Program-made: the position numbers and the translations under genes
Shown here: positions 23,213 through 26,448 of the stretch, in pieces
Position numbering within the stretch: the first letter of the stretch is position 1
How the letters are laid out: each line of letters starts with the position of its first letter
NCBI GenBank assembly: GCA_019056785.1
Contig: DXJV01000075.1
Span: forward strand, 1 to 40,801
Source: Candidatus Heimdallarchaeota archaeon
GTDB lineage: Archaea > Asgardarchaeota > Heimdallarchaeia > JABLTI01
DNA length: 40,801 nucleotides
Reading direction: 5' to 3'
The notes under the pieces: model-generated
The model's database searches: none
Told to the model about the DNA's origin: nothing
What the model saw: the letters and a program-made list of their open reading frames with translations, nothing else

Positions 23213-23845
23213 TTAATCATTCAAAATCATTTCAAGAAAGAGCTCATGAAAACGGGTGTCATCTGTCAATTCGGGATGAAAGGTTGTAGCAAGCAACTTT
23301 CCTTGTTTGACAGCATAAATACCACCGGCATCTTTTGCAAGGATTTCAACTTTTTTACCGACTGAAGTGATAATTGGTGCTCGAATAAATACGCCTGGAA
23401 ATGGTTCGTTACCTAACCGCTCAATAGTTAACGGTCGTTCGAACGAGTCTCGCTGCCGGCCATAGCGATTACGAATAACCTCAATGTCCATTAACTCGAG
23501 CAAAGCTTGTGAAAAGTCTTTGACAACCTGATCTTTAGACGCTTTGGATATGAGAATAGCACCTGCACAAGTACCAAACACCGCCATTCCTTTTTGCACT
23601 CTCTCTTGGATTTTAGCCGCAAGTTTGTGACCAAAACGCATTTCACTAACCAAGCGACTCATGACAGTACTTTCCCCGCCCGGAATGATCAAGCCATCCA
23701 ACGAGTCTAGTTGTTCGGGGCGTCGCACCCAGAGTATTTTTGAGTCTATGCCTTTGTTTGCCAGCACAGCATTCATCATTAATTCATGTTCCAGAACATC
23801 GCCTTGCAAAGCTAATATGCCAATTTGAATTGTTGATTTACTCAT
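23213..23845 (-). CDS. pdxT: Pyridoxal 5'-phosphate synthase, glutaminase subunit
   Basis: GILALQGD, PGGEST, GTCAG, RNRYGRQRDSF, FIRAP, FHPEL. Confidence 0.97.
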   Translation of the reverse strand: MSKSTIQIGILALQGDVLEHELMMNAVLANKGIDSKILWVRRPEQLDSLDGLIIPGGESTVMSRLVSEMRFGHKLAAKIQERVQKGMAVFGTCAGAILISKASKDQVVKDFSQALLELMDIEVIRNRYGRQRDSFERPLTIERLGNEPFPGVFIRAPIITSVGKKVEILAKDAGGIYAVKQGKLLATTFHPELTDDTRFHELFLEMILND

Positions 23846-23846
23846 T

Positions 23847-24839
23847 TTAGGAATCAGCTCCTCGCTCTTGCATACTGAATTTCATTTCAGGACCTGTAAG
23901 ACCCAGCATGGCTTTTTGCTCGTTCACCATTTCTTGCGCTTCGTACACAACTTCCGGGCTGTCCCAATATGCTGTTGCAAGCACAATGGCTGACGCTCGT
24001 TGAAGTGGGTCTTCACTCTTAAAAATGCCAGAACCAACAAAGATACCGTCACAACCCAAGAGCATCATCTCTGCAGCATCTGCCGGTGTGGAGATTCCTC
24101 CAGCAGCAAAATTAACCACAGGCAACCGACCTAAAGCAGCAGTTTCAACAACAATTTCATAGGAAACTTTCATTTCACGTGCTTTTGCCATGAGTTGTTG
24201 AGTATCATTCGCCTTATAATGAGCTTTAATTTCGCGGATACCATCATTCACAAGACGAATGTGTCGAATGGCTTCGGCAACGTTGCCGGTGCCAGGCTCA
24301 CCTTTCGTCCGAATCATGGCTGCACCTTCTTCTATTCGTCGAAGGGCACTTCCCAAATCAAGAGCACCACAAACAAAGGGCGTAACAAAGTCCCATTTCC
24401 AGATGTGACGCCATTCATCTGCTGGTGTTAGTACTTCTGACTCATCAATGCAATCTGCACCTGTTTCCTGCAACACTTTCGCCTCATACGTATGACCAAT
24501 ACGACATTTGGCCATGACAGGAATTGTGACAGTATCCAGGATCTCTTTAATAATGGGTATAGATGCCGGTCGAGCAACTCCTCCCGCTCGTCGAACATCT
24601 ATCGGGAGTTTATCAAGAACCATAACTGCTACTGCCCCTGCATCTTCAGCAATATGCGCTTGTTCAACAGAGGTAACGTCCATAATAACACCGCCTTTCG
24701 TCATCCGAGCAAAACCTCGCTTAACGCGATTGGTACCTCGAATGCGTTCAAAGGCATCTTTATCTATCTGTTTAATTTCACCTTTTTTCATATAGGCTCT
24801 TTCGGGGAACATCTCTTTCACGAGATTGTCAACCTCCAA
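23847..24839 (-). CDS. pdxS: Pyridoxal 5'-phosphate synthase, lyase subunit
   Basis: [58 protein letters not shown]. The true start may be GTG 24821, downstream of GGAGG. Confidence 0.98.
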
Positions 24840-24844
24840 GGAAT

Positions 24845-24868
24845 ATATTCAAGTAGAAACTTGCATAT
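24845..24868. promoter_or_regulatory. Candidate operator: inverted repeat over the predicted pdxS transcription start
   Basis: ATATTCAAGT-AGAA-ACTTGCATAT; 9 of 10 arm positions are complementary. Confidence 0.6.
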
Positions 24869-24885
24869 TAAAGTTAGACCATTAG

Positions 24886-24902
24886 GTTTTTAAGCTTTTG
24901 TG
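24886..24902 (-). promoter_or_regulatory. BRE/TATA of the pdxS-pdxT promoter
   Basis: Minus strand reads CACAAAAG-CTTAAAAA, an A-rich BRE-like run followed by a TATA-like box about 50 nt above pdxS. Confidence 0.5.
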
Positions 24903-24993
24903 CAGAATGAAAAAATGAGTAAGAAGAAGAATGACAAATTGCGATGGAAAAAATTAGGAAAGAAATTCGAAAAAGATTAGTTGAGGAAGAATT

Positions 24994-26448
24994 GTGCCCC
25001 TTGAAATTAGCTGCCAAAATTGCCAAGCAAAGCTACCACCAAGCCAACGTTCGCTTATTTGCCCATACTGTAGTGCAAGTGCGGTAGAATATCAGTTTGT
25101 TCTCAAGGAAAATCGTCCCTGTACGGTTCATAAAAATCAACGGGGGATTTGGCGCTATGAAGACTTTTTACCGGTATTCAGGAAGAGGATAACATTAGGA
25201 GAAGGAAATACCCCCATTCGAAAAGCTCGGCAACTCTTTAAAGAGAAAGTGCAGCTTTCCTTTAAAATTGAAGGTGCAAACCCCACGGGATCCTTTTTAG
25301 ACAGGGTATCGCCACTTATGGTTTCTGACGCTCTTAGTCAAGGAATGAAAACGCTCGTATGTGCATCCGATGGGAATCTAGGAGCATCACTGAGTGCGTA
25401 TAGTGCTGCAGCACAATTAAAATGCTATTGTGTCATCCCGAAAAACACCTCACCAGAGAAAAAAACACAGATGCAAGCATTTGGGGCAGAGATCATCTCC
25501 TTTGGCGAGACAATTGATGATAGCCTTAGCCTTGCAAAAAAAATGATAGAAAAGGGACGGTACCAGGCTACACCAGAGTACAACATTTTAACTATTGAAG
25601 GGACAAAAACAATTGCTTTTGAGATAATAGAAGAACTGGGCAGAGAAAACACCACCTCTTTTGACTTTCCAGAATATCTCATCATACCAATGGGAAGTGG
25701 GGGATTATTATACTCTATTTGGCGCGGGTTTAAACAAGCACAAGAAGCAAAGCTGTTTCCAAAAGAAAAACGGCTTCCAAAAATCATAGGAGTTCAAGTT
25801 GAAGGGTATGATGTAATAGTTAAATCACTGGCTACAGGAAAGATGAGCATTTCTACCACGGGAAAAAAAGGCAGACGCAAAACAATAGCAGATGCCATAT
25901 CAGTTCGAAAACCAACATATGGCGAGAAAGCAATGGAAAGCATTAGAGAAAGTAAAGGAACCGCAACCACTGTTTCCGAGGAAGAAATTATCACCGCAAG
26001 TAAAATGCTTGCACAGAAAGAAGGGTTATTTGTGGAGCTTAGTAGTGCAGCCGTTGTAGCTGCCGCAACACAACTAGTTGAAGAACGATTTTTCACTCGA
26101 GAAGATGTTGTTCTTGCAGTGATAACCTCGAGTGGACTAAAAACATCGCACGCATTTCAACGGAAAACCTCTCCTACTGGAAAAATCCGAGCATTTCGTA
26201 GCATGGGAACAAAGTTAGAAATTTTAACTCTTATTACCCAGAAGGAAGCAGATTTTGGTTATGCAATCTGGAAAGAGCTCGGAGAAAGCATCTCACTACA
26301 AGCTGTTTATCAGCATCTGAAAGAACTAGTGACAAAAGGCTTCATAAAAGAAGACGAAACAACAGAACGGCAAAAGAAATACTCATTGACAGAAAAAGGA
26401 CGAAAATTGCTGCAGAAAATGAATGAACTTGAGGAATTATTCAAATAA
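24994..26448 (+). CDS. Threonine-synthase-like (PLP fold type II) domain lacking the catalytic lysine, fused to a C-terminal PadR-type winged helix; putative transcription regulator
   Basis: N-terminal CxxC..CxxC, IWRY, TLGEGNTP, NPTGSFLDR (K to L), ASDGN, EGTKT, PMGSGG, SGLK; C-terminal GTKLEIL...GYAIWKEL...QAVYQHLKELVTKGFI...YSLTEKG. Confidence 0.88.
   Translation: MPLEISCQNCQAKLPPSQRSLICPYCSASAVEYQFVLKENRPCTVHKNQRGIWRYEDFLPVFRKRITLGEGNTPIRKARQLFKEKVQLSFKIEGANPTGSFLDRVSPLMVSDALSQGMKTLVCASDGNLGASLSAYSAAAQLKCYCVIPKNTSPEKKTQMQAFGAEIISFGETIDDSLSLAKKMIEKGRYQATPEYNILTIEGTKTIAFEIIEELGRENTTSFDFPEYLIIPMGSGGLLYSIWRGFKQAQEAKLFPKEKRLPKIIGVQVEGYDVIVKSLATGKMSISTTGKKGRRKTIADAISVRKPTYGEKAMESIRESKGTATTVSEEEIITASKMLAQKEGLFVELSSAAVVAAATQLVEERFFTREDVVLAVITSSGLKTSHAFQRKTSPTGKIRAFRSMGTKLEILTLITQKEADFGYAIWKELGESISLQAVYQHLKELVTKGFIKEDETTERQKKYSLTEKGRKLLQKMNELEELFK

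What the first reader, a model, noticed from the sequence alone, without database searches (positions are those of the whole stretch)
23213..26448. Candidate new vitamin B6 regulatory system: dead threonine-synthase fold + PadR winged helix divergent from pdxS-pdxT
Seen: the 484-aa protein has NPTGSFLDR where ThrC-type enzymes have NPTGSFKDR. Residue 102 is Leu (TTA at 25297-25299, two substitutions from AAA, so not a single-base error). The phosphate-binding loop (PMGSGG) and SxGN motif (ASDGN) are kept, about 85 C-terminal residues form a PadR-like wHTH, and the gene is head-to-head with the PLP synthase operon. Established: that lysine forms the PLP Schiff base in fold-type II enzymes. Known B6 regulators (PdxR, MocR/GabR family) use a fold-type I aminotransferase domain, and archaea have other enzyme-derived cofactor sensors (RbkR, ThiN/ThiR). 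Inference: a pseudoenzyme that binds PLP, PMP or a PLP-amino acid adduct non-covalently and controls pdxST, an independent fold-II solution to B6 sensing that pipelines would mislabel thrC. I recall similar fusions annotated as threonine synthase in Thermococcales but cannot verify this.
Basis: partly seen in the sequence, partly recalled or inferred. Interest (0 to 1): 0.92.

Follow-up and report, generated by a model that had tools for sequence, protein, structure and literature searches.

The report
Lysine-less ThrC-fold vitamin B6 regulator
A gene that pipelines label threonine synthase has lost the enzyme's catalytic lysine and carries a DNA-binding tail. It belongs to a widespread archaeal family whose conserved DNA palindrome sits in the promoters of vitamin B6 synthesis (pdxST) or B6 uptake genes, so it is very probably the B6 regulator that has not been described for Archaea.

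Summary
It ends in a PadR-type wHTH (residues 410-474) and lies head-to-head with pdxS-pdxT.

- Among 264 homologues, wHTH-bearing proteins have lost Lys in about 96% of cases (R, L, I, V, M and others). All full-length unfused ThrCs keep it.
- The fusion arose once (clade support 0.992).
- pdxST linkage holds only in the window's Heimdall family (8/8 fetched loci). Elsewhere the conserved neighbour is a PdxU2/HmpT-like ECF S-component, a B6-vitamer importer (41/55 loci).
- A palindrome with the core AGTT-N2-AACT lies between the TATA box and the start codon of pdxS or of the ECF-S gene. The window copy is at 24845-24868 and is the only PWM hit in the 2.87-Mb genome.
- In 51 Thermococcales genomes with unlinked pdxS, the element is present in 33/37 that have the regulator and 0/14 that lack it.

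Most likely mechanism: a dimeric repressor with PLP or a related vitamer as non-covalent co-repressor. Ligand identity and the sign of regulation are inferred, not shown. I found no published description. This scan has reached the same reading on at least 8 other genomes.

The parts
24994..26448 (+). Regulator gene (484 aa): N-terminal Cys4 zinc ribbon, Lys-less ThrC-fold sensor body, flexible linker, C-terminal PadR-type wHTH
   Evidence: ORF. Pfam PALP and PadR. The AF2 model (pLDDT 82.7) shows a body at 1-379, a disordered linker at 380-404 and a wHTH at 405-482.
25012..25071 (+). Cys-X2-Cys...Cys-X2-Cys zinc-ribbon-like N-terminus (residues 7-26)
   Evidence: C7, C10 and C26 are at least 90% conserved in alignment A1. 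The same element occurs in unfused archaeal ThrC-like genes, so it is inherited and not specific to the regulator.
25189..26127 (+). Fold-type II PLP-enzyme (PALP) domain, residues 66-378, used as the presumed ligand sensor
   Evidence: Pfam PF00291, E 9.5e-75. Closest PDB entries are ThrC 2zsj, 6cgq, 2d1f and 1uim.
25297..25299 (+). Codon TTA = Leu102, at the position of the Schiff-base lysine of NPTGSFKDR
   Evidence: Read directly. This column is K in 100% of 63 unfused ThrCs and R45/L28/I8% in 187 fused proteins.
26221..26415 (+). PadR-type winged helix-turn-helix (residues 410-474) with recognition helix AVYQHLKEL
   Evidence: Pfam PF03551 at 34.6 bits, above the cut-off of 27. Q440, H441 and L445 are invariant across 20 diverse members.
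24845..24868 (.). Operator: 24-bp palindrome ATATTCAAGTAGAAACTTGCATAT (clade consensus ATATACAAGTT-AT-AACTTGTATAT)
   Evidence: Conserved in all 9 orthologous spacers while the rest of the spacer diverges. It is the only PWM hit in the 2.87-Mb genome, at 29.1 bits, with nothing else above 14 bits. The same core lies before ECF-S genes and before Thermococcales pdxS.
24869..24882 (.). Second, half-site-like conserved element TAAAGTTAGACCAT (orthologues: TAAAGTTGAAACAT) between the palindrome and the TATA-like box
   Evidence: Conserved block. Other lineages also show tandem second sites. Its function is inferred.
24885..24894 (-). TATA-like box of the pdxS promoter (CTTAAAAACC on the pdxS strand; TTTAAAAAG or TTTATAAAG in orthologues)
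   Evidence: Position is conserved. It places the palindrome over the expected transcription start. Inferred, with no TSS data.
23847..24839 (-). pdxS (PLP synthase lyase subunit); probable true start is GTG at 24821
   Evidence: NF003215 at 437 bits (cut-off 395) and Pfam SOR_SNZ at E 2e-94. The start was revised from orthologue alignment.
23213..23845 (-). pdxT (PLP synthase glutaminase subunit), separated by one base from pdxS
   Evidence: TIGR03800 at 208.6 bits (cut-off 105.55).

Best explanation
The gene encodes a transcription factor, not an enzyme. Its threonine-synthase-fold body has lost the Schiff-base lysine but keeps the cofactor-phosphate loop and the ring-binding scaffold. That body acts as a reversible, non-covalent sensor of the free vitamin B6 pool, most likely PLP itself. 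The C-terminal PadR-type wHTH of a homodimer binds a 24-bp palindrome (24845-24868) that lies between the pdxS TATA box and the pdxS start codon.

When B6 is plentiful, the liganded dimer occupies the operator and blocks transcription initiation of pdxS-pdxT. When B6 is scarce, it leaves and PLP synthase is made. In other archaea the same family uses the same operator type to control a PdxU2-like B6 importer instead.

What is shown here: the architecture, the lysine loss, the single origin of the fusion, the gene linkage, operator conservation and position, and co-occurrence of operator and regulator. What is inferred: ligand identity, repression rather than activation, and the co-repressor logic.
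For: (1) Architecture and lysine loss.

(2) Single origin. 178 of the 179 fused proteins form one clade with support 0.992, nested inside Lys-bearing ThrCs.

(3) Conservation pattern. The wHTH recognition helix and the cofactor-loop residues N96, P97, T98, S100, D103, R104, G127, N128, G234, S235 and G236 are invariant, while position 102 varies freely.

(4) Linkage.
- Divergent pdxST in 8/8 fetched loci of the window's family.
- An ECF S-component next to 41/55 fused loci and 0/26 unfused loci.
- A profile of that S-component hits only 4hzu_S (HmpT/PdxU2) in PDB, at E 3e-19. [quoted passage not shown]
- PF07155 is the PdxU/PdxU2 family (PMC9997740).

(5) Operator.
- Conserved palindrome in 9/9 orthologous spacers.
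- The exact core AGTT-N2-AACT lies upstream of 26/41 ECF-S genes, against 3/388 other neighbouring genes. Two of those three are pdxS.
- Single PWM hit in the own genome.
- The only exact match in the T. onnurineus genome is at pdxS.

(6) Natural experiment in 51 Thermococcales genomes with pdxS unlinked to the regulator. The element is present in 33/37 genomes with the regulator and 0/14 without. A reversed control pattern gives 0/51.

(7) Physiology fits. Seven regulator-bearing genomes have no pdxS at all, including the complete MK-D1 genome and two others that carry the regulator+ECF-S pair. The window's genome has pdxST but no detectable ECF-S.

(8) Geometry. The operator abuts or follows the TATA box, the usual arrangement for archaeal repressors (established knowledge).

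(9) Homodimer model. ipSAE 0.71 against a best control of 0.00. The mark was reached by 20 of 30 solved homo-pairs and 1 of 23 single chains. The runs share at least 79% of contacts and the partner pLDDT is at least 80. Solved ThrCs are dimers, so this pass may only show likeness.
Against: - No ligand-binding, DNA-binding or expression data exist. PLP as the ligand is inferred from ancestry and regulon content.
- The window's operator is the most degenerate of its clade (29.1 bits against 34-36 for most of the others).
- Seven fused members keep Lys, so lysine loss is not absolute.
- Related genomes are not independent. TF-minus Thermococcales fall into only about 2-4 groups on the PdxS tree, so the Fisher p of 2e-9 overstates the support.
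- Bacterial PdxR is an activator, so the sign of regulation could differ from what I infer.
- Some Bathyarchaeia loci place the gene beside thrC-hom.
Confidence: 0.78

Rival explanations
1. It is a regulator with the same operator and targets, but its sensor domain reads an amino-acid-pathway metabolite (O-phosphohomoserine, threonine, or a PLP-amino-acid adduct) and not free PLP. It would then tune B6 supply to amino-acid metabolism.
For: The sensor derives from ThrC, and 5-8 Bathyarchaeia loci keep it beside thrC and hom. Much of the ThrC pocket scaffold is retained.
Against: In those loci the operator occurs only before the ECF-S gene and never in the thrC-regulator spacer. The regulon contains only B6 synthesis or uptake genes. 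Position 126 of the substrate-site motif changes from T/S to N/D family-wide. The window's genome shows no homoserine dehydrogenase (the genome is 82% complete).
Confidence: 0.1
2. Same sensor and operator, but the protein activates pdxST when B6 is low, as bacterial PdxR does, and does not repress it.
For: Bacterial PdxR is reported as a positive regulator of pdxST (reference titles cited in PMC9997740). There is no transcription start or expression data here.
Against: The operator lies downstream of or abutting the TATA box and close to the start codon, both in Heimdall and in Thermococcales promoters. By established knowledge, archaeal activator sites usually lie upstream of BRE/TATA.
Confidence: 0.08
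3. It is a working or bifunctional threonine synthase that uses another residue for catalysis, and the wHTH is an accessory.
For: It passes the TIGR00260 thrC cut-off marginally (173.4 against 167.1 bits). No other ThrC was found in this 82%-complete genome.
Against: The Schiff-base Lys is replaced by chemically unrelated residues across the clade. No new invariant Lys is specific to the fused family; K91, K205 and K383 are also conserved in real ThrC. Sister genomes hold a separate Lys-bearing ThrC-like gene alongside the fused one. No homoserine dehydrogenase was found.
Confidence: 0.02
4. The palindrome is bound by some other factor, or is a promoter element, and its association with this gene is coincidental.
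For: No direct binding data. The element is AT-rich, like archaeal promoter DNA.
Against: The element is lost from pdxS promoters exactly in the Thermococcales genomes that lack this gene, while the TATA box stays. Operator sequence varies between lineages while the regulator's recognition helix and the AGTT-N2-AACT core stay constant. It is unique in the genome.
Confidence: 0.02

Closest known systems
PdxR and other MocR-subfamily regulators (Bacteria)
   Same: A PLP-enzyme-like sensor domain fused to a winged helix. The regulon consists of pdxST and the PdxU-type B6 transporter (PMC5320631). The regulator gene is often divergent from pdxST.
   Different: MocR has an N-terminal GntR-type wHTH plus a fold-type I aminotransferase domain. 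Here there is a fold-type II ThrC domain plus a C-terminal PadR-type wHTH, with the Lys lost. MocR is stated to be absent from Archaea (PMC5320631). PdxR activates, whereas here the geometry suggests repression. The two are analogous, not homologous.
Threonine synthase (ThrC, TIGR00260; PDB 2zsj, 6cgq, 2d1f, 1uim)
   Same: Same fold and ancestry (E 1e-44 to 1e-52 over residues 52-385). The zinc-ribbon N-terminus is shared with archaeal ThrCs. The predicted dimer interface runs through the ThrC-fold body.
   Different: No Schiff-base Lys. Position 126 is T/S in ThrC and N/D here. There is an extra linker and wHTH. The context is B6 genes, not the threonine pathway.
Archaeal enzyme-derived vitamin regulators RbkR (riboflavin) and ThiR (thiamine)
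   Same: The same design principle: a vitamin-pathway enzyme domain fused to a wHTH that controls synthesis or uptake genes of that vitamin in Archaea. Both are listed as predicted P. furiosus regulons in PMC10746257; their domain make-up is from my own knowledge.
   Different: Different enzyme folds and vitamins. Here the parent enzyme is a cofactor user, not an enzyme of the B6 pathway, and it is catalytically dead.
PadR-family repressors
   Same: The wHTH matches PF03551 above its cut-off. The operator is palindromic, as expected for a dimer.
   Different: Canonical PadR proteins are small, with an N-terminal wHTH and a C-terminal dimerisation helix (my own knowledge). Here the wHTH is C-terminal to a 380-residue sensor that probably supplies the dimer interface.

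Membership tests
Threonine synthase (EC 4.2.3.1; TIGR00260 / NF004170) | Fold-type II PALP domain of ThrC type | tested here: met
   PF00291 at E 9.5e-75. The best PDB hits are ThrCs.
Threonine synthase (EC 4.2.3.1; TIGR00260 / NF004170) | Schiff-base lysine in the NPTGSFKDR motif | tested here: not met
   Leu102 (TTA 25297-25299). K is found in 100% of 63 unfused ThrCs.
Threonine synthase (EC 4.2.3.1; TIGR00260 / NF004170) | Score above curated HMM cut-offs | tested here: inconclusive
   TIGR00260 gives 173.4 against a cut-off of 167.1 (pass). NF004170 gives 380 against 421 (fail). NF004170 itself is modelled on Lys-less fused proteins, so passing it does not show enzyme function.
Threonine synthase (EC 4.2.3.1; TIGR00260 / NF004170) | Threonine-pathway genomic context (hom, thrB) | tested here: not met
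   No PF00742 homoserine dehydrogenase in the 82%-complete genome. The neighbours are pdxS and pdxT.
Threonine synthase (EC 4.2.3.1; TIGR00260 / NF004170) | O-phosphohomoserine to threonine activity | not testable with these tools
   Needs an enzyme assay.
MocR/PdxR PLP-dependent regulators | N-terminal GntR-type wHTH | tested here: not met
   The wHTH is C-terminal and PadR-type. No GntR match was listed by Pfam at E <= 0.01.
MocR/PdxR PLP-dependent regulators | Fold-type I aminotransferase-like effector domain with PLP lysine | tested here: not met
   The effector domain is fold-type II (PALP) and lacks the Lys.
MocR/PdxR PLP-dependent regulators | Regulon of pdxST and/or a PdxU-type transporter | tested here: met
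   Operators lie at pdxS and at PF07155 ECF-S genes. This is a functional likeness only.
PadR family (PF03551) | PadR-type wHTH above the Pfam gathering score | tested here: met
   34.6 bits against 27, residues 410-474.
PadR family (PF03551) | Small protein with N-terminal wHTH and C-terminal dimerisation helix | tested here: not met
   The wHTH is the C-terminal domain of a 484-aa protein.
Lys-less ThrC-wHTH fusion family (no published name found; captured by NF004170) | ThrC body + linker + wHTH with the YQHLxEL recognition helix | tested here: met
   AVYQHLKEL at residues 437-445. Q440, H441 and L445 are invariant.
Lys-less ThrC-wHTH fusion family (no published name found; captured by NF004170) | Schiff-base Lys replaced | tested here: met
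   Leu102. About 96% of the family lacks Lys.
Lys-less ThrC-wHTH fusion family (no published name found; captured by NF004170) | Membership of the single fused clade | tested here: met
   Clade of 178 fused proteins with support 0.992. The window's Leu clade is nested in the Arg-dominated subclade.
Lys-less ThrC-wHTH fusion family (no published name found; captured by NF004170) | AGTT-N2-AACT-core palindrome in the promoter of a B6 synthesis or uptake gene | tested here: met
   24845-24868. The window copy reads AGTA-GA-AACT, with one core mismatch, and the inverted repeat CAAGT-N4-ACTTG is intact.
Lys-less ThrC-wHTH fusion family (no published name found; captured by NF004170) | Binds a B6 vitamer and DNA | not testable with these tools
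   Needs purified protein.

The most novel reading that the evidence does not exclude
This is the first vitamin B6 transcription factor of Archaea. It is a pan-archaeal family (Asgard, Thermoproteota including Bathyarchaeia and Desulfurococcales, Thermococcales) that arose once from threonine synthase by fusion to a wHTH and loss of the Schiff-base lysine. It would sense free PLP non-covalently and repress either PLP synthase or a PdxU2-type importer through one conserved operator type. That makes it a convergent, non-homologous counterpart of bacterial PdxR. It is currently propagated as 'threonine synthase' by an equivalog HMM.
Probability: 0.7. Interest if true: 0.85.

Novelty: new variant of a known kind. 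Interest (0 to 1): 0.8.

Why it matters
- **Gap filled.** No B6 regulator is described for Archaea in the literature I could search. MocR/PdxR is stated to be absent there (PMC5320631), and reviews list only PdxR and PdxR2 (PMC9997740).
- **Convergent evolution.** A PLP-enzyme fold was turned into a PLP sensor twice, from fold-type I in Bacteria and from fold-type II in Archaea. Here the catalytic lysine was removed, which would make binding reversible.
- **Annotation error.** NCBIfam NF004170 is an equivalog model named "threonine synthase". It scores Lys-less P. abyssi and T. onnurineus proteins at 787-823 bits against a cut-off of 421. That inflates predicted threonine prototrophy in archaeal metabolic reconstructions.
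- **Transporter specificity.** The regulon gives independent support for assigning B6 specificity to the archaeal PF07155 ECF S-components. It also separates archaea that make B6 (pdxST) from those that appear to rely on salvage, including the cultured Asgard archaeon MK-D1.
- **Testability.** The hypothesis can be tested directly in cultured, genetically tractable Thermococcales.

Tried and rejected
- **Mismatch search of the own genome.** ACAAGTTNNAACTTGT with up to 3 mismatches gave 226 hits against 262 for the reversed control, so it was uninformative. I replaced it with a PWM scan.
- **Window site at 35155-35172.** It matches with 3 mismatches but scores below 14 bits on the PWM. I treat it as chance.
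- **Thermococcales pattern search with 1 mismatch.** Counts were near background, about 33 against 21. Only the exact and tandem matches at pdxS stand out. Two other palindromic candidates in T. onnurineus lie 43 and 67 nt inside ORFs and were not accepted.
- **pdxS search in the P. abyssi and T. onnurineus records behind L142 and L143.** Those records are not held. I used species-representative genomes instead; G123 is identical in the regulator to T. onnurineus NA1.
- **Remodelled ThrC substrate-phosphate site.** Pairwise alignments to bacterial ThrCs suggested that N-S...R changes to P-E...T. Against 63 unfused archaeal ThrCs the contrast is weak, because position 200 is R in only 34% of them. 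I keep only positions 102 and 126 as family-level differences.
- **Literature.** A search for Thermus ThrC active-site residues (Lys61, Arg160) found nothing in the held library. Searches combining threonine synthase, PadR, pdxS, Thermococcus, archaea and transcription factor found no description of this family.
- **Midpoint rooting of the family tree.** It split the fused proteins artificially. Outgroup rooting resolved one clade.
- **Not attempted.** Ligand docking or a PLP-bound model, and Rfam or riboswitch scans of the spacer.

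
Full report
**1. Observation**

The ORF at 24994-26448 (+) encodes 484 aa. Its sequence contains NPTGSFLDR. Residue 102 is Leu, encoded by TTA at 25297-25299. ASDGN (124-128) and PMGSGG (232-237) are present.

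Pfam finds a fold-type II PALP domain at residues 66-378 (E 9.5e-75) and a PadR wHTH at residues 410-474 (34.6 bits, cut-off 27). On the opposite strand, head-to-head, lie pdxS (NF003215, 437 bits) and pdxT (TIGR03800, 208.6 bits).

One refinement: orthologue alignment indicates that pdxS starts at the GTG at 24821, 11 nt after a GGAGG.

Named close homologues place the organism among Heimdall-type Asgard archaea. The assembly is 2.87 Mb in 102 contigs and 82.5% complete.

**2. The protein belongs to a large, single-origin, lysine-less family**

A word-indexed search and an exhaustive HMMER search returned 264 proteins. They come from Heimdall-, Thor-, Hel-, Odin-, Hod-, Hermod- and Loki-type Asgard archaea, Bathyarchaeia, Desulfurococcales, Methanomethylicota and cultured Thermococcales such as Pyrococcus abyssi and Thermococcus onnurineus.

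I scored the Schiff-base column against presence of the wHTH:
- Proteins with the YQHLxEL recognition helix carry R (88), L (53), I (15), V (6), M (5), S, T, F, Q, Y, H, A or N. Only 7 carry K.
- Of the proteins without the wHTH, 63 carry K. The two exceptions are truncated fragments.

A maximum-likelihood tree of the ThrC body, rooted on unfused ThrC, puts 178 of the 179 fused proteins in one clade. Its support is 0.992, and it is nested among Lys-bearing enzymes. The clade has two subclades:
- An Arg-dominated subclade of 134 tips. It contains the window's Leu clade and the 7 Lys forms.
- A hydrophobic L/I/V/M subclade of 45 tips.

So the fusion arose once, and the lysine was lost at or near its base.

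Across 20 diverse members the cofactor-loop residues (N96, P97, T98, S100, D103, R104, G127, N128, G234, S235, G236) and the recognition helix (Q440, H441, L445) are invariant, while position 102 drifts. Against 63 unfused ThrCs the only sharp family-level differences are position 102 and position 126, which is T/S in ThrC and N/D in the fused family.

No solved structure of the fused family exists. The best PDB hits are ThrC enzymes that cover only residues 52-385.

An AlphaFold2 model (pLDDT 82.7) shows a ThrC-fold body (1-379), a disordered linker (380-404) and a wHTH (405-482).

A homodimer test passed:
- ipSAE was 0.71 against a best control of 0.00.
- The mark was reached by 20 of 30 solved homo-pairs and 1 of 23 single chains.
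- The runs share at least 79% of contacts, and the partner pLDDT is at least 80.
- The interface runs through the ThrC body and includes the cofactor loop (95-99) and the start of the linker (380-389).

Because solved ThrCs are dimers, this pass may only show likeness.

**3. Linkage: pdxST in one clade, a B6 importer in the rest**

In 80 loci from species-representative genomes, pdxS-pdxT is adjacent only in the two close Heimdall loci. Within the window's taxonomic family, all 8 fetched loci from other genomes have divergent pdxS-pdxT; two of them repeat L001 and L002.

Clustering all neighbours revealed the family-wide partner. It is an ECF-transporter S-component (PF07155) next to 41 of 55 fused loci and 0 of 26 unfused loci.
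- In Bathyarchaeia, Odin and Desulfurococcales it lies downstream on the same strand.
- In Loki-, Hermod- and Hod-type loci it is convergent with the regulator.
- In the other Heimdall family it lies beside the regulator in 6 of 11 loci.

A profile of these proteins hits a single PDB chain at E <= 1. That chain is 4hzu_S (E 3e-19), the L. brevis HmpT/PdxU2 S-component. The alignment conserves its pocket residues Glu41, Asn140 and Gln143. [quoted passage not shown] PMC9997740 lists PdxU and PdxU2/HmpT as PF07155/COG4720 B6 transporters.

Seven regulator-bearing genomes have no pdxS at all: the complete genome of Promethearchaeum syntrophicum MK-D1, an Odin genome, a closed Heimdall genome, a Thermococcus MAG (G085), a Methanobacteriota MAG (G087), and a Desulfurococcales and a Bathyarchaeia genome. 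MK-D1, the Odin genome and the last two carry the regulator+ECF-S pair. The window's genome has pdxST but no detectable ECF-S. This is the pattern expected if the regulator governs whichever B6 supply route a lineage has.

**4. The operator**

I aligned the regulator-pdxS spacer of the window with 8 orthologous loci. It shows one sharply conserved block, the 24-bp palindrome ATATACAAGTT-AT-AACTTGTATAT, followed by a half-site-like TAAAGTTGAAACAT and a TATA-like box. The rest of the spacer diverges.

The window copy, ATATTCAAGTAGAAACTTGCATAT (24845-24868), is the most degenerate, but it keeps the inverted repeat CAAGT-N4-ACTTG. A PWM built from Heimdall-type sites finds exactly one hit in the 2.87-Mb assembly, this site at 29.1 bits. 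Nothing else exceeds 14 bits.

The same element recurs directly upstream of the ECF-S genes in every lineage, often in tandem:
- Other Heimdall family and Asgardarchaeum: exact CAAGTT-NN-AACTTG
- Loki-, Hermod- and Hod-type: ATATAAGTT-TA-AACTTATAT
- Bathyarchaeia: TAGTATAGTT-AT-AACTATACTA
- Desulfurococcales: TATAAAGTT-TA-AACTTTATA

The shared core AGTT-N2-AACT lies within 120 nt upstream of 26 of 41 ECF-S genes. It lies upstream of only 3 of 388 other genes in the same loci. Two of those three are the Heimdall pdxS genes and the third is a radical-SAM gene. The paralogue locus L120 has pdxS-pdxT downstream of the regulator. Its pdxS promoter carries the element right after a TTATAAA box.

**5. 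A natural experiment in Thermococcales**

In Pyrococcus and Thermococcus the regulator gene sits in a housekeeping cluster (proteasome beta, aCPSF1), far from pdxS. Of 61 sampled Thermococcales genomes, 45 carry the regulator, 16 do not, and 51 have pdxS. I fetched all 51 pdxS promoters.

In genomes with the regulator, the TATA box is followed directly by TCAAGTTTTnnCTTGA and a second CAAG...CTTGA element before the SD and ATG. In genomes without it, the TATA box is retained but the element is gone.

With the pattern CAAG-N6-8-CTT[GA], the count is 33/37 in TF+ genomes against 0/14 in TF- genomes. The four TF+ exceptions carry degenerate variants by eye. A reversed control pattern gives 0/51. 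The Fisher p of 2e-9 overstates the support because related genomes are not independent. On a PdxS tree the TF-minus genomes fall into at least two groups interleaved with TF+ ones.

In T. onnurineus NA1 (G123) the only exact TCAAGTTNNNNCTTGA in 1.8 Mb is at pdxS, with a second copy 23 bp downstream of it.

**6. Mechanism**

*Shown:*
- A dead-enzyme body fused to a wHTH.
- A conserved palindrome, unique in the genome, placed between the TATA box and the start codon of B6 supply genes.
- Co-occurrence of operator and regulator.

*Inferred:*
- A homodimer binds the palindrome and occludes transcription initiation.
- The same operator governs both synthesis and uptake genes, and both should be shut off when B6 is plentiful. 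The liganded form should therefore be the DNA-binding form, which makes the ligand a co-repressor.
- The retained phosphate loop and ring scaffold point to PLP or a phosphorylated vitamer as the ligand.
- Loss of the lysine would prevent an internal aldimine, so occupancy could follow the free pool reversibly.

**7. Rivals**

- *A true threonine synthase.* This is very unlikely. The Lys is replaced by unrelated residues, and no substitute Lys is specific to the family. Sister genomes carry a separate Lys-bearing ThrC-like gene (NPTGTFKSRG) alongside the fused gene. No homoserine dehydrogenase was found in this genome.
- *A sensor of a threonine-pathway metabolite.* In Bathyarchaeia loci where thrC and hom flank the regulator, operators occur only before the ECF-S gene and never in the thrC spacer. 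This rival cannot be excluded without binding data.
- *An activator.* This is disfavoured by operator position.

**8. Comparison with the known, and novelty**

Functionally this mirrors bacterial PdxR, whose regulon is pdxST, pdxK and pdxU (PMC5320631). It fails both structural criteria of MocR membership: a GntR N-terminal wHTH and a fold-type I domain with Lys. PMC5320631 also states that MocR is not present in Archaea. It shares a design principle with the archaeal regulators RbkR and ThiR.

I found no published description:
- PMC9997740 lists only PdxR and PdxR2 as known B6 regulators.
- A 2023 inventory of P. furiosus regulons names RbkR, ThiR and others but no B6 factor (PMC10746257).
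- Targeted searches were empty.

NCBIfam's equivalog NF004170, named "threonine synthase", spans the wHTH. It scores the Arg-bearing P. abyssi and T. onnurineus proteins at 823 and 787 bits against a cut-off of 421, so the mislabel is systematic.

Earlier notes of this scan reached the same reading on at least 8 other genomes. I formed my reading before seeing them and tested each element here. They are not independent evidence.

**Verdict**

This is a new, non-homologous variant of the PLP-sensing transcription factor. It is of high interest and can be tested directly in cultured Thermococcales.

Noticed in passing
window:24821-24839: The pdxS start is probably the GTG at 24821 (GGAGG 11 nt upstream; N-terminus VKEMFPER matches the orthologues' MKNLFPER), not the TTG at 24839 given by the mechanical ORF call.
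   Followed up: partly
L015:10326-11366 (and 8 other Bathyarchaeia loci): An AIR-synthase-family gene (weak ThiL, HypE and SelD matches, all below cut-off) directly follows the PdxU2-like ECF-S gene in 9 Bathyarchaeia loci. It could be an ATP-dependent B6 salvage enzyme, but this is untested.
   Followed up: no
L054:1436-2437: In a Methanomethylicota locus the gene just downstream of the regulator is a radical-SAM protein. It is the only gene other than pdxS and the ECF-S genes with the exact operator core in its upstream 120 nt.
   Followed up: partly
own genome G000:C98:97197-98045 (outside the window): A CysK-like PALP gene has one in-frame TAG (GPEI*RDLEG). It could be a sequencing error, a pseudogene or a recoding event. 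Not examined.
   Followed up: no
L130-L137 (sister genomes of the window's genus): A separate ~400-aa unfused ThrC-like gene with a zinc ribbon and the motif NPTGTFKSRG (Ser in place of the usual Asp after Lys) scores just below the TIGR00260 cut-off (152-162 against 167). It is absent from the window's 82%-complete assembly. Whether it is the genus's real threonine synthase is open.
   Followed up: partly
proteins P0070, P0106, P0108, P0110, P0119, P0124, P0126: Seven fused family members carry Lys at the Schiff-base position and are nested within the Arg-dominated subclade. AGR and AAR codons differ by one transition, so these may be revertants that bind PLP covalently.
   Followed up: partly
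window:20338-21564 and 21610-23199: A BioF/Kbl-type class I/II aminotransferase (a PLP enzyme) and an MFS/Atg22-like transporter lie just beyond pdxT, and the transporter is convergent with pdxT. No operator was found near either, so I do not count them in the regulon.
   Followed up: partly
window:26576-27991 and 28094-30157: A 471-aa protein with no Pfam match lies directly downstream of the regulator. Beyond it, on the minus strand, is a 687-aa protein whose sequence looks like HEAT-type repeats with C-terminal Cys-rich, zinc-ribbon-like motifs (by eye; Pfam was not run on it). Both are uncharacterised.
   Followed up: no
L023, L027-L040, L043, L044 (Loki-, Hermod- and Hod-type loci): The regulator/ECF-S pair is embedded in a conserved block with a flavin-reductase-like gene, a nitronate-monooxygenase-like gene, a DnaJ-CXXC-domain gene and a DEAD-box helicase with DUF5814. 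This may be synteny only.
   Followed up: no
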